Origin: a virus
Taxonomy: Duplodnaviria > Caudoviricetes
DNA: 64,000 nt
IMG/VR virus record: IMGVR_UViG_3300010882_000013
Coordinates: 1,164 to 65,163 of that record
Reading direction: 5' to 3' (one strand)
Part shown: piece by piece, positions 3,004 to 14,312 of the stretch
How positions within the stretch are numbered: the first letter of the stretch is position 1
Layout: every line of letters starts with the position of its first letter
The notes under the pieces: generated by a model
The model's input: only the letters and a program-made list of their open reading frames with translations
Told to the model about the DNA's origin: nothing
The model's database searches: none
Made by a program: the position numbers and the translations under genes

Positions 3004-3410
3004 TAGATAATAACCAATATGTACAGCATAATGGGGTATGCCATATAAAGAATTGGGCTCCGAGGCATATACAATGCTATAAATTGAAACGATACAAGGG
3101 CCTTGATCCATATACCATTGTCTTCACCCATGCCAACAAATGGGCCGGAGCCCTCTACATAGGGCAGGTGTACTATGTGTCAGCAGGGGCCGGAGTGTGG
3201 CAACACGGAGAAGTAGAACGGGGAAAGCAGGGCAATTTCGGGAGCCGGGTTCGGTTTTATGACTTGCCAAAGACTATCCAGCGTGCTATAATAGAAGAAT
3301 ACGAAGAAATCTGGCATATTTCCATGACGGTAACCGATGCGTCCTTGCCCTCTATAGATGGGGAAAAACCGTACCTGTGCATTGATTGGAAAGCAACGCC
3401 GAAAAGTTGA
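3000..3410 (+). CDS. hypothetical protein
   Basis: GGGAG SD; ATGA overlap. Confidence 0.6.
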   Translation: MIDNNQYVQHNGVCHIKNWAPRHIQCYKLKRYKGLDPYTIVFTHANKWAGALYIGQVYYVSAGAGVWQHGEVERGKQGNFGSRVRFYDLPKTIQRAIIEEYEEIWHISMTVTDASLPSIDGEKPYLCIDWKATPKS

Positions 3411-3544
3411 GAGCGCAGAGGGCCTTTTCCTTCTAAAAGTAGGGAGCAAATTATGATCATAATTACCCCTACTGTTTTACCGACTTAAAATCTTTTTTGA
3501 TACATCTTATGTTGACATAGGATGAACCCTAGGAGGTTACGATT

Positions 3545-7167: not shown

Positions 7168-7850
7168 TGCCCACACCGCAGGCACCGTCATCAGGTGATG
7201 CGTTTTGGAACGTTGCTCTGGAGTGTTCGTTAAGACGAGCACACGGCAAATGTAAGTGTAACTTCGATGATCCAGCGTGTAATAACTGTAGGGTATACTT
7301 GCGAAAGTATACTCAAGCAAGTGAAGCAGGAATCCAGATGCTTCTATTGCATACAGATACAGCGGCGAATGGGGATAGACGTTCTAATAGAAAGCATCAC
7401 ATATTCTTTGCAGTGCTAGAGGCTATCTTTATCTTAATTGCTATTAGTGCTTGGCGCTTTGATCATAGGCCAAAGCCTATGGACATACCACAGAGTGTTG
7501 TAGCATCGGTAGATGTAGATAAGGAGATCAGAGACACGCTGGTATTGGTCAAGCGTGATCTTATTAACAGAGTTGATATGAACCATGATGGGCTTATCAA
7601 CTGTATTGATTCGGCGTGCTTATTCTATAAATACTTTCCTGATAAAAGCAGGGTGTGTATCGAGTTGAATTACAATCCGCCGATGAATCACCTGTTCTGT
7701 TGCGTGCTTGTTAACGGAGCATGGAGAGCAGTGGAACCGCAGACATACTGGTTAGGCAGACAAGAGTATTGGATGTCTAGCGTATGGAGCAATTATGATA
7801 GTAGATACAACACGGACAGGACGTCTGAATATCTACAGTATATTAAGTAA
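7167..7850 (+). CDS. membrane-anchored transglutaminase/papain-like Cys peptidase candidate
   Basis: TM segment (IFFAVLEAIFILIAISAW); NCIDSA...NHLF...WRAVEPQ Cys-His-Glu-like arrangement. Confidence 0.5.
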   Translation: MPTPQAPSSGDAFWNVALECSLRRAHGKCKCNFDDPACNNCRVYLRKYTQASEAGIQMLLLHTDTAANGDRRSNRKHHIFFAVLEAIFILIAISAWRFDHRPKPMDIPQSVVASVDVDKEIRDTLVLVKRDLINRVDMNHDGLINCIDSACLFYKYFPDKSRVCIELNYNPPMNHLFCCVLVNGAWRAVEPQTYWLGRQEYWMSSVWSNYDSRYNTDRTSEYLQYIK

Positions 7851-7898
7851 TCTACGAGGGATTACCTTCCCCTCCTGATTATACTTTTTGCCAAACCT

Positions 7899-8016
7899 TC
7901 GCCTACTGTGGGTTATCAGTAGGACTTGCGACTATAATGTAATGGGAGCATACCGGGTTCGTTCTGCATAGGACACTCCTTTTCCGGTAGTGTAGGTTCG
8001 ATTCCTACTAGGCGCA
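7899..8016 (+). ncRNA. tRNA-like element with enlarged central region
   Basis: T-arm GTAGG-TTCGATT-CCTAC (7992-8008); TAGGCG (8009-8014) pairs with CGCCTA (7900-7905); no canonical anticodon loop. Confidence 0.45.
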
Positions 8017-8021
8017 TAGTT

Positions 8022-8106
8022 TGTAAAGCAGTTTGCATTGTAGGTGTCAGTTACTTCTACCATCAATGAAAACTACTGATGCTGTTGTTTATCAGACTGC
8101 TTTACA
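8022..8106 (+). ncRNA. Ro60-associated Y-RNA-like module, copy 1
   Basis: 14-bp terminal stem; CATTGTAG; inner stem GTGTCAG/CTGATGC; TTACTTC; TGTTTAT. Confidence 0.7.
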
Positions 8107-8107
8107 A

Positions 8108-8225
8108 AGCACTTTGTATTGTAGTAGTCGCTTACTTCTTCTGTCAAAAAGAACCTGCGCCGTTCAACTCGGTGCGTGAGCCGGATGCTCGGTAAATTAG
8201 CGGTTACGTTGTTTATCAAAGTGCT
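8108..8225 (+). ncRNA. Ro60-associated Y-RNA-like module, copy 2, with T-loop hairpin
   Basis: AGCACTTTG/CAAAGTGCT stem; TATTGTAG; TAGTCGCT/AGCGGTTA; TACTTC; T-arm-like GCGCCG-TTCAACT-CGGTGC; TGTTTAT. Confidence 0.7.
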
Positions 8226-8229
8226 GTTT

Positions 8230-8375
8230 GAGAGTATAGCTCAGTGGTAGAGCGCGTGCATAGCAAGCCTGTTGTCGATTATGCTTATCGGGAGTCGCCA
8301 AGCGTCTTCTGTATTGTAGATGACAGTTACTTCATCAGGAGCACGATGTCGGGGGTTCGACTCCTTCTACTCTCG
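8230..8375 (+). ncRNA. tRNA body with an 81-nt circularly permuted Y-RNA-like module replacing the anticodon loop (copy 3)
   Basis: acceptor GAGAGTA/TACTCTC; D-arm GCTC-AGTGGTA-GAGC; anticodon stem CGTGC/GCACG; T-arm GGGGG-TTCGACT-CCTTC; insert 8260-8340. Confidence 0.8.
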
Positions 8376-8444
8376 TAGCCTAGTAGTGCAGATAACGGTT
8401 ACTTCGTGGTTAGATAGCCCGCTATCGCTTGTTTCTCTAGGCTA
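8376..8444 (+). ncRNA. Ro60-associated Y-RNA-like module, copy 4
   Basis: TAGCCTAG/CTAGGCTA stem; TAGTGCAG; ATAACGG/CCGCTAT; TTACTTC; TGTTTCT. Confidence 0.7.
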
Positions 8445-8474
8445 TATTTCTTCCATCCAGTAGAGGAGGACAGT

Positions 8475-9956
8475 ATGGCAAAGTTCAATGGTTCAAATGT
8501 TGGCATCAATCGGACAGTCAACAAAGACGGTTATCCTGCATACAAGATGAAGGATAAGGATCGTTTAGTTACGCAGGTACTCACTACATTCTTCGGTGAG
8601 CCAAAGTTCTATGGCGATAACTCCAATGAAATCGTAGCAAGTGCACAAGAAATAATTTGTTGTTCAGGCCATGCAGATTTCGTTGCGAAACTCGCTGTCT
8701 ATGCACGTAAGGTATTCAATATGAGGTCGGTATCTCACGTTCTTACTGCTGTCCTTGCTAACTGCAAGGAAGGTAAAGCAGTAGTACGTAAGCTCATACC
8801 CGCCGTGGTTGTACGTGCTGATGATGTAACCGAAATACTTTCAGCTTATTTATCTATGTTTGGTAAGCCTATACCCAACTCATTAAAGAGGGGCATAGGT
8901 GATGCGTTTAAGTGCTTTACTGAATACTCTCTTGCGAAATATAAAGGTGATGGCAAGTCGCTCTCGATGAAGGACGTGCTTCGTATATGCCATCCTAAAC
9001 CTACAACTAAATCACAGTCTGATCTCTGGAAGCGTTGTATTGACGGAGTGCTTGAGACTCCTAATACATGGGAGACACAACTGTCAGCACATGGCAACAA
9101 CGCTGAAACATGGACAAAGCTCCTTGATGATAACTCATTAGGCTACATGGCATTGCTCCGTAATCTTCGTAATCTCTTACAGGCTAACCTTGACTCTGTA
9201 CATTACAATGCTGTGTTTGCACGCATCGCAGACCGTGATGCTGTAAAGCACAGTCGTCAGTTGCCATTCAGATTTTTGTCTGCGTGGCGTGAACTACAAG
9301 AAATTGGCTCATCGAAAGTGTTCGATGCTCTTGAAACAGCTCTTGATTATTCCGTTGAGAATATGGAGAAGTTACCGGGCAAGACGTGCATCGTAGTAGA
9401 TGTATCCGGTTCTATGTCTAGCTCTATATCTGCAAGGAGCACGATACGGTGCTCGGATATATCGCGCTTGCTCGGTGTTATGGCTGCTCATATTTGCGAT
9501 GATAGTATCTTCCTTGCGTTTGATGATTATATATACATACCTGCAATATCAAGTAAAGGATCTATACTTAGTCAAGCGATGAGTATTAGATATCCGGGTA
9601 ATGGTACTAATATGCATCTACCAATACAGCATCTTATTGAACATAAAATGAATGTAGATCGTATTATTATATTATCAGATAATGAAGTGAATCGAGGAAT
9701 GAACACAGTGCAACAAGATGTAAATGAGTATCGTAACACTGTGAACAAAGACGTATGGGTACATGCGATTGACTTACAGGGCTATGGTACACAGCAGTTC
9801 CTCGGATCAAGAACGAACATTATAGCAGGATGGAGTGAGAAAGTTCTTGACTTCATTCGGTACGCTGAACAAGGCATGGACACATTGGTAAAGTGCATCG
9901 AGTCGTATGATTATACAACTATGAAGACTGCTATAAGAGAGGAGGATGTTGGATGA
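8475..9956 (+). CDS. rsr: TROVE-domain RNA-binding protein (Ro60/Rsr) with C-terminal vWA domain
   Basis: FFGEPKFY, KLAVYARKVFNMRSVSH, YMALLRNLRN and LPFRFLSA TROVE motifs; vWA MIDAS DVSGSM; GAGGAGG SD. Confidence 0.93.
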   Translation: MAKFNGSNVGINRTVNKDGYPAYKMKDKDRLVTQVLTTFFGEPKFYGDNSNEIVASAQEIICCSGHADFVAKLAVYARKVFNMRSVSHVLTAVLANCKEGKAVVRKLIPAVVVRADDVTEILSAYLSMFGKPIPNSLKRGIGDAFKCFTEYSLAKYKGDGKSLSMKDVLRICHPKPTTKSQSDLWKRCIDGVLETPNTWETQLSAHGNNAETWTKLLDDNSLGYMALLRNLRNLLQANLDSVHYNAVFARIADRDAVKHSRQLPFRFLSAWRELQEIGSSKVFDALETALDYSVENMEKLPGKTCIVVDVSGSMSSSISARSTIRCSDISRLLGVMAAHICDDSIFLAFDDYIYIPAISSKGSILSQAMSIRYPGNGTNMHLPIQHLIEHKMNVDRIIILSDNEVNRGMNTVQQDVNEYRNTVNKDVWVHAIDLQGYGTQQFLGSRTNIIAGWSEKVLDFIRYAEQGMDTLVKCIESYDYTTMKTAIREEDVG

Positions 9957-11241: not shown

Positions 11242-13971
11242 ATGAACTGTGACTTTAATGGGGCCGGAGGGTTATGTTGTCAGTGCCAGCATTGGCAAGC
11301 CGTACAATGGGACGGCTGGATGTGGACAGACGAGATAGCTCTCTGCGGCTTGTGCCTTAATGAAAAGAAACGAGGGCATAGGTGCATAGAGTATAAAGCA
11401 CACACCATTACTACTATTGCTGCTAAGAACCTCGAAGCGCAAAAGATACTTGCCTCACAAGTTCATGTTGGAGATGGATCTATTGGAGCACGAGTAAACG
11501 ATGTTGACTTAAATCACAATCAGTTCATAGATGCTATGCAAGAATGGTATAAGAACAATCAGTCTAAGTTTGATATGGTCAATGTAATAGAAGATGTAGA
11601 AGATGAATACTACAAGCACCAAGACGAAGATTTTGAAAGGTTTAAGGACTCAAAAGAAATGGCCTTGTTCTGGACAATGGGGTGTATAGCAGAGGGTACA
11701 ATAATACAGTATGGATATAAAACTGCTACTTATAGAATACCAATTGAGACAGCTTACTTAAAACAGAGACGAACTACTAAACAAAGGTATGTTATAGGGC
11801 TTCTTGAAGATGATACCTTTGGCCTTATAGAAGTATACGATATGCTCTATTCAGGAGAGAAGGAGTGTATCGGTATAACTACTGAATCAGGAAATACATT
11901 GTCTCTTACTCCTGAGCATGAGGTACTTACTGATAATGGATGGCTTCGTGCAGATAAATTAACATTAAATAGCATCGTTATATGTAATGGATATAAGCGT
12001 GTATATGAAAGCGAATCTGTTTATTCTGATGGGTATGTACGATTGCATGGATATAAATATAAGGGATATCCTAATCGACGCACAGATGGTCTGCTCAAAC
12101 ATCGTTATGTTATGGAGCAACATTTAGGAAGGTACTTACTTCCTACGGAATACGTTCATCATAAAGATGGAAATAAATTAAATAATGATATATCTAATTT
12201 AGAGCTTTTGGACAGCATGTCGGCTCATGCTGAAAGGCATCATGCAATAAGTGTCCATAATCTTAACTCTACAGATTATACTCATCCTACTGGTACTACA
12301 GTAGTTAAAGTTCCTAAGTTTGAACATGTCATAGGAATAAAAAATGTAGGTATTAAACGTACCTACGATATTAAATGTGCCGACCCACATAACTTTATCG
12401 CTAATAAAATCGTAGTGCATAATTGTGGAAAATCAGCTATTGCCTTACGCATCGCTGCCTATAAGTATGATAAAGGAGATATAGATAGTCTTCTTATAAT
12501 CAGCCCCAACGATGTCCACCGACAGTGGTCACAGGAGCAGATCCCAAAGTGGTTGCCTAGACATATTAATAGGGAAGTACAAACACTAGGTGGAAGGGGA
12601 GGAATGAAGGAATCTCATCCTTTCTACTACCCTGATTATCTTCATATAGTAAGCGTAAATATAGACACGTTCAGCACGCCGAAGAAGTGGGAGCAAATAG
12701 CTGAATGGGTCAAAGCAACTAAATGTATGGTGATTCTCGATGAGGCTACATCAATAAAGAATGTTAGTAGTAAACGAACAGAGAGGTTGCTATATGAGTT
12801 CAATGATGTCGTGCGAAGGAGGAAGCAAGTTATATCGAGCGTGCCTCATACTGTGGCTCGTGCTATCCTTACAGGTACTCCTGTTACTAACGGCGTTCTT
12901 GATCTCTGGTCACTATTTGAATTCCTTCGTCCTAATTACTTTAATCGTAACTACTATAGCTTTCGTAACCACTATGCTATGCTTGCGAGTATTACGACTG
13001 CTTATGGATCTGCCCAAATACTAATAACACCAGAGTTATGGCAAGGGATAAAGGACTGTGCAACATGGGAGATGGCTAATGCTGTTTTTGGTGTGAGTGT
13101 TGACACGTATAATATCATTCAGTTACAAGATACATTTAGAGGAGCGTACAAGCATGAGGAAGAACTTAAAGAACTCATTGCCCCGGTTAGTTCTTTCAGG
13201 GCTATCGAAGATTGCGTGGATATGCCACCTACCGTGTATAATAAACATGTTGTTACGATGTCAACCGAACAGACTAAAGCATATAAAGAAATGGAAAACG
13301 AACTGTTGGCGATGTATGGAGGCGCTACAACTACCGCAGCTAATAAGTTGTCCGCACTCATTAGATTGTCACAGATTAGCTCAGGCTTTATTGTGCAGGG
13401 ACAGTTAGCACTAAATGAGGAGGGTGAAGTTCTTGAAGACTACGATGTCCTACCCGGTGAATCAGTATGGCTTGGAAGCTCTACGCCAAAGCTCAACAGT
13501 CTCTACAGAGATATTGATGAGACTGATAGGCCGTGCATTATCATCACTCGATTTACCTGCGAAGCCGATAGAATATTTACGGATCTTTCCAGACAGTATA
13601 GATGTTGTTTATACACTGGATGGAAAAAAACAGGAACTGTTGAAGAATTCAAGGAGGGTAAATATGACATCATGGTTGCTAACATTAGGTGTATCAGTAG
13701 GGGTTTTAATTTACAAAATGCTTGTCAGATGTTCTTTTACTCTAATACATTTAGCCTTGAGGATCGCTTGCAGACAGAAGGACGTATATTCCGCATCGGA
13801 CAGAGTAAGACGTGTGTATATACAGACTACATCAACGAAGGCACCATCGATCTTAAAGTGGTCGGTGCGCTTAGACAGAAACGGACATTACTCGATTATA
13901 TCAGAGGGACAGGTTTAACAGCATTTGTTAAAGACGATGACGAGATAACACAAATGGAAACGACTATATGA
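11242..13971 (+). CDS. SNF2-family helicase containing an intein
   Basis: Walker A MG|CGKS split by the intein; LDEATSIKN; LTGTP; SRGFNL; QTEGRIFRIGQ. Confidence 0.9.
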   Translation: MNCDFNGAGGLCCQCQHWQAVQWDGWMWTDEIALCGLCLNEKKRGHRCIEYKAHTITTIAAKNLEAQKILASQVHVGDGSIGARVNDVDLNHNQFIDAMQEWYKNNQSKFDMVNVIEDVEDEYYKHQDEDFERFKDSKEMALFWTMGCIAEGTIIQYGYKTATYRIPIETAYLKQRRTTKQRYVIGLLEDDTFGLIEVYDMLYSGEKECIGITTESGNTLSLTPEHEVLTDNGWLRADKLTLNSIVICNGYKRVYESESVYSDGYVRLHGYKYKGYPNRRTDGLLKHRYVMEQHLGRYLLPTEYVHHKDGNKLNNDISNLELLDSMSAHAERHHAISVHNLNSTDYTHPTGTTVVKVPKFEHVIGIKNVGIKRTYDIKCADPHNFIANKIVVHNCGKSAIALRIAAYKYDKGDIDSLLIISPNDVHRQWSQEQIPKWLPRHINREVQTLGGRGGMKESHPFYYPDYLHIVSVNIDTFSTPKKWEQIAEWVKATKCMVILDEATSIKNVSSKRTERLLYEFNDVVRRRKQVISSVPHTVARAILTGTPVTNGVLDLWSLFEFLRPNYFNRNYYSFRNHYAMLASITTAYGSAQILITPELWQGIKDCATWEMANAVFGVSVDTYNIIQLQDTFRGAYKHEEELKELIAPVSSFRAIEDCVDMPPTVYNKHVVTMSTEQTKAYKEMENELLAMYGGATTTAANKLSALIRLSQISSGFIVQGQLALNEEGEVLEDYDVLPGESVWLGSSTPKLNSLYRDIDETDRPCIIITRFTCEADRIFTDLSRQYRCCLYTGWKKTGTVEEFKEGKYDIMVANIRCISRGFNLQNACQMFFYSNTFSLEDRLQTEGRIFRIGQSKTCVYTDYINEGTIDLKVVGALRQKRTLLDYIRGTGLTAFVKDDDEITQMETTI
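11683..12423 (+). mobile_element. intein (247 aa) with HNH homing endonuclease
   Basis: starts CIAEGT; block B LTPEHEV; HNH HRYVME...VHHKDGNKLNN; block F TYDI; ends VVHN followed by Cys. Confidence 0.9.
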
Positions 13972-14239: not shown

Positions 14240-14312
14240 GCTGACATAGCGCAGTGAGTAGAGCAGGTGCCCCGTAAGCATCAGGTCGGTAGTGCAAATC
14301 TATCTGTCAGCT
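14240..14312 (+). tRNA. tRNA-Thr(CGT)-like, non-canonical
   Basis: 73-nt cloverleaf: GCTGACA/TGTCAGC acceptor; GGTGC-CCCGTAA-GCATC anticodon arm; GGTAG-TGCAAAT-CTATC T-arm; C33, no D-loop GG, T-loop TGC; no encoded CCA. Confidence 0.65.

What the first reader, a model, noticed from the sequence alone, without database searches (positions are those of the whole stretch)
8230..8375. tRNA whose anticodon loop is replaced by a circularly permuted Ro-binding module
Seen: canonical acceptor, D, anticodon-stem and T arms, with an 81-nt insert (8260-8340) in place of the anticodon loop. The insert holds the array module with its halves swapped. The 3' half comes first (CTGTTGT 8269-8275, TGCTTAT, CGGGAGTCGC 8289-8298), then a CAA loop, then the 5' half (GCGTCTTCTG 8302-8311, TATTGTAG, ATGACAG 8320-8326, TTACTTC). 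Both module stems still pair. Established: bacterial YrlA has free ends in the Ro-binding stem and a tRNA-like domain with a closed acceptor stem. Inference: this RNA has the inverse topology, with free tRNA ends and a closed Ro stem. It could be matured by RNase P, receive CCA and possibly be aminoacylated, tethering Ro60 to a tRNA mimic. Processing at its ends would also release copies 2 and 4 from the precursor.
Basis: partly seen in the sequence, partly recalled or inferred. Interest (0 to 1): 0.9.

Follow-up and report, generated by a model that had tools for sequence, protein, structure and literature searches.

The report
tRNA-shaped Y RNA beside phage Ro60
Just upstream of a phage's Ro60 (Rsr) gene lies a small RNA gene built like a complete tRNA whose anticodon loop is replaced by a hairpin-closed Ro60-docking module. 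It is the circular permutation of the published bacterial YrlA Y RNAs, and the design recurs in many other phages.

Summary
Window 8230-8375 (+) has a 7-bp open acceptor stem, a D arm, a 5-bp anticodon stem and a T arm (Rfam tRNA 47.8 bits against a cut-off of 29). An 81-nt insert replaces the anticodon loop.

The insert is the Ro60/Rsr-binding module of YrlA-type Y RNAs with its halves in reverse order, closed by a 10-bp helix and a CAA loop. The element lies 100 nt upstream of a phage rsr gene (TROVE + vWA), inside an array of three ordinary Y modules and a second tRNA-like element.

Relatives of this Rsr carry canonical YrlAs (ends in the Ro stem, acceptor closed). At least 14 other copies, from about 12 phage or metagenome contigs, have the window's topology. 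Most of their records encode Ro60, and most copies end in an encoded CCA, though the scan that found most of them required CCA. Acceptor, D, T and module stems covary.

It is best read as an acceptor-open, circularly permuted YrlA. It is probably cut from a polycistronic transcript by RNase P and RNase Z, given CCA, and bound by phage Rsr. Nothing supports aminoacylation, and no identity element is conserved. Expression, processing and binding are untested.

I found no published description in the papers I could search. Earlier agents of this scan noted the same design on other DNA.

The parts
8230..8375 (+). Whole element: acceptor-open, circularly permuted YrlA-type Y RNA (tRNA cloverleaf with the Ro-binding module in place of the anticodon loop)
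   Evidence: Rfam tRNA 47.8 bits over model positions 1-71 with an 80-nt insert. Model R1 built from it finds homologues of the same topology. Family covariation.
8230..8236 (+). Acceptor 5' strand GAGAGTA; predicted RNase P site between T8229 and G8230
   Evidence: Pairs 7 of 7 with 8368-8374. No T arm or credible closing strand upstream.
8239..8253 (+). D arm (GCTC / AGTGGTA / GAGC) with A14, G15, G18, G19 and A21
   Evidence: Rfam alignment. D stem is 100% paired across 15 family members.
8255..8259 (+). Anticodon-stem 5' strand CGTGC
   Evidence: Pairs with 8341-8345 GCACG. Ensemble probability is low, 0.19.
8269..8275 (+). Module inner-stem strand of the 3' half (CTGTTGT)
   Evidence: Pairs 7 of 7 with 8320-8326. 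This stem has changes on both sides at 6 of 7 positions in the family.
8276..8288 (+). 3'-half internal-loop strand CGATTATGCTTAT, counterpart of the conserved CG..TTTATC of canonical modules
   Evidence: Compared with copies 1, 2 and 4 and with related loci.
8289..8311 (+). Outer module helix closed into a hairpin: CGGGAGTCGC, CAA loop, GCGTCTTCTG
   Evidence: 9 of 10 pairs, mean pair probability 0.89. Other members close it with shorter hairpins, some ending in GAAA-type loops.
8312..8333 (+). 5' half of the module: TATTGTAG, inner-stem strand ATGACAG, TTACTTC
   Evidence: One of four signature matches in the window against 0.12 expected. The same signature is conserved upstream of rsr in dozens of loci. 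It occupies the position of the published GNCGAAN0-1G motif of YrlA (PMC4201824).
8341..8345 (+). Anticodon-stem 3' strand GCACG
8351..8367 (+). T arm (GGGGG / TTCGACT / CCTTC); C48 at 8350 can form the Levitt pair with G15
   Evidence: Rfam alignment. T stem is 100% paired in the family.
8368..8375 (+). Acceptor 3' strand TACTCTC and discriminator G; no encoded CCA (TAG follows)
8020..8108 (+). Y module copy 1: minimal Y RNA hairpin in the normal order
   Evidence: Fold -30.7 kcal/mol, z-score -4.9. 16-nt inverted repeat.
8106..8227 (+). Y module copy 2, normal order, with a T-arm-like hairpin (GCGCCG / TTCAACT / CGGTGC) in its loop domain; YrlB-like
   Evidence: z-score -2.5.
8376..8445 (+). 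Y module copy 4: minimal Y RNA hairpin, starting directly after the discriminator of the permuted RNA
7928..8016 (+). tRNA-like element 1: cloverleaf with a 27-nt anticodon 'loop' and no Ro module, 3 nt before copy 1
   Evidence: Rfam tRNA 49.8 bits. Not called by ARAGORN. Fold.
8475..9956 (+). rsr: Ro60 orthologue of 493 aa
   Evidence: Pfam TROVE E 5.7e-36 and Ro60 vWA E 9.1e-14. 4034 homologues found.

Best explanation
Window 8230-8375 encodes a Y RNA of the YrlA kind in a circularly permuted, 'acceptor-open' form. The body is a tRNA mimic with the usual tertiary-interaction nucleotides. Its anticodon stem continues into the Ro60/Rsr-binding module, whose distal helix is closed by a small hairpin instead of carrying the RNA ends.

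Proposed mechanism (inferred):
1. The array 7928-8445 is transcribed with rsr.
2. Host RNase P cuts at 8229/8230. A 3' tRNA-processing activity (RNase Z in Bacillota-like hosts) cuts after G8375, and CCA is added.
3. These cuts also free Y module copy 2 upstream and copy 4 downstream.
4. The mature RNA of about 149 nt docks phage Rsr on the module and presents an authentic tRNA elbow and acceptor end to a tRNA-recognising factor. In this way it tethers or gates Rsr as Y RNAs do elsewhere.

Shown here: the sequence architecture, its homology to both halves of YrlA, its recurrence and covariation, and its linkage to rsr. Inferred: transcription, processing, CCA addition, Rsr binding and the partner factor.
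For: 1. tRNA body: Rfam tRNA 47.8 bits over the full model with an 80-nt anticodon insert. T8, A14, G15:C48, G18, G19, G53, T54, T55, C56, A58 and C61 are all present.

2. The module is the genuine Ro module. The signature occurs 4 times in 64 kb against 0.12 expected. The same signature sits next to rsr in dozens of loci. Canonical neighbours score as Rfam YrlA at 33-37 bits over model positions 1-114. Rfam YrlA also aligns the window's D arm plus 3' half at 21 bits.

3. Permutation: model R1, built from the window, gives collinear hits across the junctions of tandem canonical YrlAs (D arm and 3' half of copy n, then 5' half and T arm of copy n+1) at E 1e-8 to 1e-4.

4. Same topology elsewhere: L042, L071 and L073; L222 (two copies), L233, L238, L255, L261, L263, L274 (two copies), L289, L312 and L320. 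Rfam scores L071, L222 and L320 copies as tRNA at 44-45 bits.

5. Covariation on 15 members: 89.6% of cells paired against 40-44% when partners are slid, and 0 of 500 shuffles reach the observed values. Acceptor, D and T stems are 100% paired. The inner module stem has changes on both sides at 6 of 7 positions (own parse).

6. Ro60 linkage, not imposed by the pattern scan: rsr lies within about 2 kb in the seven records tested by tblastn (L042/L217, L071, L222, L255, L261, L312, L320). TROVE is present elsewhere in 3 of 4 further records.

7. Precedent: M. smegmatis YrlA is cut by RNase P in its acceptor loop and receives CCA in vivo (PMC4201824).

8. No sigma-70-like promoter on the + strand and no terminator in 7600-8700. 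This fits a processed polycistronic array.
Against:
- Thermodynamic folding alone does not favour the anticodon and T stems (pair probabilities 0.19 and 0.04). The whole-molecule z-score is -1.09.
- The window copy lacks an encoded CCA and lacks the CGAGAGGT element seen in several relatives.
- The family members were picked for a 7-of-7 acceptor partner, and most for CCA, so those two features are partly selected for.
- The MAFFT alignment misplaces the module in two or three rows.
- The published YrlA motif GNCGAAN0-1G is only loosely matched by TATTGTAG.
Confidence: 0.8

Rival explanations
1. It is mainly a processing signal. The tRNA-like body serves to recruit RNase P and RNase Z so that the neighbouring Y RNAs (copies 2 and 4) are released from the polycistronic transcript. 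The excised piece itself is not an Rsr partner.
For: Its ends are flush with the flanking modules: a 4-nt spacer to copy 2, and copy 4 starts at 8376. tRNA-like element 1 at 7928-8016 has no Ro module and sits 3 nt before copy 1. No promoter or terminator was predicted inside the array.
Against: A mere punctuation element would not need a complete Ro module. Yet the module's inner stem is kept by compensatory changes in 15 copies. In L042, L320 and L312 the RNA is flanked by true tRNAs or sits alone next to rsr.
Confidence: 0.1
2. It is an ordinary tRNA gene interrupted by an intron. The 81-nt insert is spliced out and a decoding tRNA results.
For: The bases right after the anticodon stem read AT-AGC-A. 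Followed by the A that precedes the 3' strand, they could mimic a 7-nt loop with U33, anticodon AGC and A37.
Against: No group I intron or other intron family is detected at E up to 10, and 81 nt is far below the size of bacterial group I tRNA introns (own knowledge). The U33/anticodon-like reading is not conserved: relatives have CTAAAATTT, CCTAACA or CCGAAAA at that place. The insert is the conserved Ro module linked to rsr. ARAGORN, which allows tRNA introns, finds nothing.
Confidence: 0.03
3. It is a decayed or chimeric leftover with no function: a tRNA gene hit by a Y-module insertion, or a remnant of a tandem YrlA array.
For: Tandem YrlA arrays are common and can generate such junctions. 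The window copy has two G-U pairs in its T stem and one T-T mismatch in the outer helix.
Against: All four cloverleaf stems and both module stems are intact, and all tertiary-contact nucleotides are kept. The same architecture recurs in about 12 unrelated contigs with compensatory changes, and most copies have an encoded CCA.
Confidence: 0.05

Closest known systems
YrlA (Y RNA-like A; Rfam RF02553; Chen et al. 2014, PMC4201824; structure in Wang et al. 2018, bioRxiv 10.1101/312249)
   Same: Encoded next to Ro60/rsr. Has a Ro-binding module (outer helix, asymmetric internal loop with a conserved 5'-strand motif, 7-bp inner helix) joined through an anticodon-stem-like helix to a tRNA mimic with D arm, T arm, acceptor stem and tRNA tertiary nucleotides. 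Both halves of the window RNA align with the matching halves of canonical YrlAs.
   Different: The connectivity is circularly permuted. In YrlA the 5' and 3' ends lie in the Ro helix, the acceptor stem is closed by a loop, and the T arm precedes the D arm. Here the ends lie in the acceptor stem, the Ro helix is closed by a hairpin, and the D arm precedes the T arm as in a tRNA. The Rfam YrlA score is 21 bits against a cut-off of 69.
Mycobacterium smegmatis YrlA after processing (Chen et al. 2014, PMC4201824)
   Same: A Y RNA with a 7-bp acceptor stem that RNase P recognises. It acquires free acceptor ends and CCA in vivo while the Ro module stays attached.
   Different: There the open acceptor arises by cleavage of a canonical YrlA and yields two base-paired pieces with four ends. 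Here, and in the CCA-encoding relatives, the open acceptor is built into the gene and the RNA is a single chain.
Deinococcus radiodurans Yrn1 (Chen et al. 2013 and 2014)
   Same: A Y RNA with tRNA-like features in which the D-like and T-like arms come in the native tRNA order.
   Different: In Yrn1 the Ro helix takes the place of the acceptor stem and a closed stem-loop takes the place of the anticodon arm. Here the Ro helix takes the anticodon position and the acceptor is free.
tmRNA, including the two-piece circularly permuted tmRNAs (own knowledge)
   Same: A tRNA-like domain formed by the two RNA ends (acceptor + T arm, CCA end), with a foreign functional domain in place of the anticodon arm. 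The family is known to exist in circularly permuted gene forms.
   Different: tmRNA has G3:U70 and is charged with alanine, carries an mRNA-like reading frame and pseudoknots, and binds SmpB. None of these features is present here.
Phage tRNA-array genes next to a Ro60-like protein (Bas63 gp130; PhageMaP preprint, PMC11482910)
   Same: The authors suggest that some annotated tRNA genes next to a phage Ro60-like gene may in fact be Y RNAs, and they report that gp130 counters the Ppl defence system.
   Different: That is a suggestion without sequence or structure analysis. It describes no module in the anticodon position.

Membership tests
YrlA (RF02553) | Gene lies next to a Ro60/rsr gene | tested here: met
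   It ends 100 nt upstream of rsr (8475-9956; TROVE E 5.7e-36).
YrlA (RF02553) | Ro-binding module: outer helix, asymmetric internal loop with a conserved 5'-strand motif, 7-bp inner helix | tested here: met
   Both helices pair. The signature is enriched (4 against 0.12 expected) and shared with rsr-linked modules elsewhere. Actual binding to Rsr is not testable with these tools.
YrlA (RF02553) | tRNA-like domain with D arm, T arm, acceptor stem and tRNA tertiary nucleotides | tested here: met
   Rfam tRNA 47.8 bits over the full model, with G15:C48, G18G19 and T54-A58 present.
YrlA (RF02553) | Connectivity: RNA ends in the Ro helix, acceptor stem closed by a loop, T arm 5' of the D arm | tested here: not met
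   The order here is acceptor 5' strand, D arm, 3' half, hairpin, 5' half, T arm, acceptor 3' strand. There is no T arm upstream and no D arm downstream.
YrlA (RF02553) | Score at or above Rfam's gathering cut-off of 69 bits | tested here: not met
   21.2 bits, covering the D arm and 3' half only. Canonical YrlAs of related loci also reach only 33-37 bits, so the model is weak for this clade.
tRNA (RF00005) | Cloverleaf with acceptor, D, anticodon and T stems at or above the cut-off | tested here: met
   47.8 bits against 29, model positions 1-71.
tRNA (RF00005) | 7-nt anticodon loop with U33 and an anticodon | tested here: not met
   81 nt lie between the anticodon-stem strands. ARAGORN finds no tRNA. 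No loop-like consensus is seen in relatives.
tRNA (RF00005) | Aminoacylation and decoding | not testable with these tools
   No G3:U70 and no long variable arm. Discriminators vary among members: G, C, T and A.
Intron-containing bacterial tRNA (group I intron in the anticodon loop) | Group I catalytic core within the insert | tested here: not met
   No intron family matches at E up to 10 in 7700-8600, and the insert is only 81 nt.
tmRNA (RF00023) | tRNA-like domain plus tag reading frame and pseudoknots; G3:U70 | tested here: not met
   No tmRNA call by ARAGORN or Rfam in the window. Position 3:70 is G-C.

The most novel reading that the evidence does not exclude
The tRNA-shaped Y RNAs are a distinct functional class. 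Because they carry a genuine CCA acceptor end, they would be handled by the tRNA machinery (CCA-adding enzyme, perhaps a synthetase, EF-Tu or a tRNA repair or ligase enzyme). They would thereby bring phage Rsr to damaged tRNAs or to the translation apparatus, for example to counter host defences that attack tRNAs or nucleic acids. They may also be the ancestral form from which permuted YrlAs arose through tandem arrays.
Probability: 0.12. Interest if true: 0.85.

Novelty: new variant of a known kind. Interest (0 to 1): 0.6.

Why it matters
Y RNAs work by tethering Ro60 to other factors, and the partner of the tRNA-like domain of YrlA is still unknown. A natural form of the same RNA with true tRNA ends, most copies found here with CCA encoded, narrows the search to factors that read the acceptor end and elbow of tRNAs. 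It also gives a one-piece substrate for testing RNase P, RNase Z, CCA addition and charging.

It shows that Y RNA genes can hide among annotated or rejected 'tRNA' genes in phage tRNA arrays. It also supplies a concrete route between tRNA and YrlA, through tandem arrays and circular permutation, which bears on the origin of Y RNAs. One preprint reports that a phage Ro60-like protein counters a defence system, so these RNAs may be part of phage counter-defence.

Tried and rejected
- DNA search of the array against the phage GenBank collection: no match.
- Rsr as a single sequence against IMG/VR: no relative. An alignment of homologues was needed.
- A first regex screen and the R1 covariance model gave many 130-160-nt 'permuted' hits near bacterial rsr genes. 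Inspection of the flanks showed that nearly all are junctions of tandem canonical YrlAs with closed acceptor hairpins. They were not counted as members.
- MAFFT alignment of four members misaligned the module. The 15-member alignment is usable but still shifts L255, L263 and L274b, so the module pairing is a lower bound.
- Rfam's weak YrlA alignment at 8189-8281, pairing copy 2's tail with the 3' half, was rejected as a real unit. It has no T arm and scores 21 bits.
- A closing hairpin upstream of the acceptor (TGTTTAT, 6 of 7 pairs, four of them G-U) was rejected. It lies in copy 2's conserved loop and no T arm precedes it.
- Relatives of the virus record cannot be drawn.
- These papers could not be opened: Sim et al. 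2020 (Annu Rev Microbiol), Boccitto and Wolin 2019, Burroughs and Aravind 2016. The statement 'not described' therefore rests on the searchable library only.
- No protein-RNA complex prediction is offered, so none was tried.

Full report
**What is there.** The window is nearly all of a 65-kb IMG/VR phage record, about 99% complete. Its genes include an SNF2 helicase carrying an intein, a D5/VapE-type primase-helicase and a lytic transglycosylase. ORF 8475-9956 (+) is a Ro60/Rsr orthologue with TROVE (E 5.7e-36) and Ro60 vWA (E 9.1e-14) domains.

The 620 nt between the previous ORF (stop at 7850) and rsr hold an array on the + strand:
- a tRNA-like element at 7928-8016;
- Y module copy 1 at 8020-8108;
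- copy 2 at 8106-8227;
- the element in question at 8230-8375;
- copy 4 at 8376-8445.

The module signature (K-Y-A-G, seven bases, TTACTTC) occurs four times in the window. All four are in this array, against 0.12 expected.

**Check of the observation.**
- Rfam's tRNA model aligns 8230-8375 from position 1 to 71 (47.8 bits, cut-off 29), with an 80-nt insertion where the anticodon loop should be. ARAGORN calls nothing.
- The acceptor stem is 7 of 7 Watson-Crick.
- The D loop has A14, G15, G18, G19 and A21. The T loop is TTCGACT. C48 can pair with G15.
- In the insert, 8269-8275 pairs 7 of 7 with 8320-8326. 8289-8298 pairs 9 of 10 with 8302-8311 across a CAA loop.
- The minimum-free-energy fold contains the acceptor stem, the D stem and both module stems. 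The full cloverleaf-plus-module fold lies 2.7 kcal/mol above it. The T and anticodon stems are thermodynamically weak, and the whole-molecule z-score is -1.09. Folding energy alone therefore proves little; the case rests on comparison.

**What the module is.** Homologues of this Rsr are abundant, at 55-62% identity, mostly in Clostridia, rumen and termite-gut metagenomes and phages. Their upstream regions carry RNAs with the same signature in the canonical YrlA order: 5' half, T arm, acceptor hairpin closed by a loop, D arm, 3' half (N7', then CG..TTTATC). Examples are L044, L046, L017 and L029. Rfam's YrlA model matches these end to end at 33-37 bits, below its cut-off of 69 but at E 1e-4 to 1e-3.

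The motif before the inner stem reads GGCGTAG, AGCGAAG or GGTGAAG in relatives and TATTGTAG in the window. It sits where Chen et al. place the GNCGAAN0-1G motif of the presumed Rsr-binding site (PMC4201824).

**The permutation.** In the window the D arm is followed by the anticodon-stem 5' strand and then the 3' half of the module. The 5' half is followed by the anticodon-stem 3' strand and the T arm. These are the same neighbour relations as in YrlA, and the linker lengths are similar: 9 and 14 nt here, 7 and 13 nt in L044.

Only the break point differs. The RNA ends are in the acceptor stem, and the distal Ro helix is closed.

Rfam's YrlA model weakly aligns the window's D arm plus 3' half. 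The model R1, built from the window, gives collinear hits across the junctions of tandem canonical YrlAs at 25-40 bits. This confirms homology of both halves. It also suggests how one form can turn into the other: a tandem array contains the permuted order.

**Is it a one-off?** No. After discarding tandem-array junctions, the same acceptor-open topology remains in L042, L071 and L073.

A pattern scan of IMG/VR looked for TTACTTC, a T arm and CCA at the tRNA distance. It added L222 (two copies, one without CCA), L233, L238, L255, L261, L263, L274 (two copies), L289/L306, L312 and L320.

On 15 members:
- acceptor, D and T stems are 100% paired, with changes on both sides at 7 of 7, 3 of 4 and 3 of 5 positions;
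- the inner module stem has such changes at 6 of 7 positions;
- overall 89.6% of cells pair, against 40-44% when partners are slid by one to three columns, and no shuffle out of 500 reaches the observed values (own parse).

Caveats: members were chosen for a perfect acceptor partner, and most for CCA, so those two features are partly selected. The D arm directly after the acceptor strand, the module pairing and the Ro60 linkage were not selected.

The seven records tested by tblastn (L042/L217, L071, L222, L255, L261, L312, L320) have rsr within about 2 kb of the RNA. Three of four further records encode a TROVE protein elsewhere.

**How it most likely works.**

*Shown:* architecture, homology, recurrence, linkage.

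*Inferred:*
- The scan finds no sigma-70-like promoter on the + strand and no terminator in 7600-8700, so the array is probably co-transcribed with its neighbours and must be processed.
- The element has what bacterial RNase P needs: a 7-bp acceptor stacked on a T arm, with U at -1 and G at +1.
- It lacks CCA, so in a Bacillota-type host RNase Z would cut after G8375 and CCA would be added (own knowledge of CCA-less tRNA maturation).
- These cuts fall 4 nt after copy 2 and exactly at the first base of copy 4. tRNA-like element 1 likewise ends 3 nt before copy 1. The tRNA-shaped units therefore also punctuate the array.
- The mature RNA would dock Rsr on the closed module and expose a real tRNA elbow and acceptor end.

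The precedent is M. smegmatis YrlA, which RNase P cuts in its acceptor loop and which receives CCA in vivo (PMC4201824). Here the open acceptor is built into the gene.

Aminoacylation is unsupported. Discriminators vary, there is no G3:U70 and no long variable arm.

**Rivals.**
- *Spliced intron-containing tRNA.* Unlikely: there is no intron family hit, the insert is only 81 nt, and no anticodon-loop consensus is conserved among relatives.
- *Dead remnant.* Unlikely, given intact stems and recurrence with covariation.
- *Pure processing signal.* Possible as a second role, but it does not explain the conserved Ro module.

**Novelty.** Two published topologies are described in Chen et al. 2014:
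- YrlA: Ro helix at the anticodon side, carrying the RNA ends;
- Yrn1: Ro helix at the acceptor side.

The present one is a third: Ro helix at the anticodon side but closed, with the ends at the acceptor.

I found no description of it in the searchable library. The nearest statement is a suggestion that some tRNA genes next to phage Bas63's Ro60-like gp130 may be Y RNAs (PMC11482910). Several reviews and Burroughs and Aravind 2016 could not be read.

After my own analysis I looked up this scan's notes. Other agents had reported the same design next to Ro60 genes of other phages, giant viruses and cyanobacteria, also without finding a publication. I treat this as agreement, not as evidence.

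**Verdict.** The feature is real. It is a new topological variant of a known RNA kind and a member of a recurrent, apparently undescribed phage-borne class. Function is inferred, not shown.

Noticed in passing
window 7928-8016 (+): A second tRNA-like element (Rfam tRNA 49.8 bits; one A-G mismatch in the acceptor). Its anticodon 'loop' is 27 nt, folds into a 5-bp hairpin, and has no Ro-module signature. It ends 3 nt before Y module copy 1. ARAGORN rejects it.
   Followed up: partly
window 14240-14312 (+): A 73-nt degenerate tRNA-like sequence in the gap after the SNF2 helicase: 7-bp acceptor GCTGACA/TGTCAGC, anticodon loop CCCGTAA, T loop TGCAAAT. Model R1 found it at 34.9 bits, but neither ARAGORN nor Rfam at its cut-off did.
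   Followed up: partly
window 8106-8227 (+): The loop domain of Y module copy 2 contains a T-arm-like hairpin (GCGCCG / TTCAACT / CGGTGC) and a short second hairpin, but no D arm. This resembles the published YrlB type, which has a T arm only.
   Followed up: partly
window 7851-7927 (+): Two small hairpins lie directly after the upstream ORF's stop codon. One has TTACCTTC in its loop. The other (CCTACTG / TGGGTTAT / CAGTAGG) has a loop resembling the module's 3'-strand motif. They may be remnants of a further module.
   Followed up: no
L020:2070-2210: Another topology: a Y module in normal order whose apical loop holds a complete, unpermuted tRNA-like cloverleaf with a 7-nt anticodon loop (Rfam tRNA 47.6 bits, model positions 3-68), attached through its acceptor end.
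   Followed up: partly
L213, reverse complement 3332-3437: A tRNA-shaped gene with encoded CCA. A 36-nt insert between the anticodon-stem strands carries TTACTTCGG and CGTTTATCG in the unpermuted order, like a miniature module.
   Followed up: no
L071:1277-1340: A match to Rfam DUF3800-VIII RNA above its cut-off (45.4 against 40.2 bits) directly upstream of an rsr gene, in an array of Y RNAs. This raises the question whether that motif family is a Y RNA.
   Followed up: no
window 11242-13971 (+): The SNF2-family helicase gene is interrupted by an intein with an HNH endonuclease domain (Pfam Intein_splicing and HNH_3).
   Followed up: no
L029, L032, L033, L035, L036, L040 (upstream of rsr): Several phage rsr loci carry a tmRNA gene and true tRNA genes within 1-2 kb upstream of rsr. 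Phage Ro60 genes thus tend to sit in clusters of tRNA-like RNA genes.
   Followed up: no
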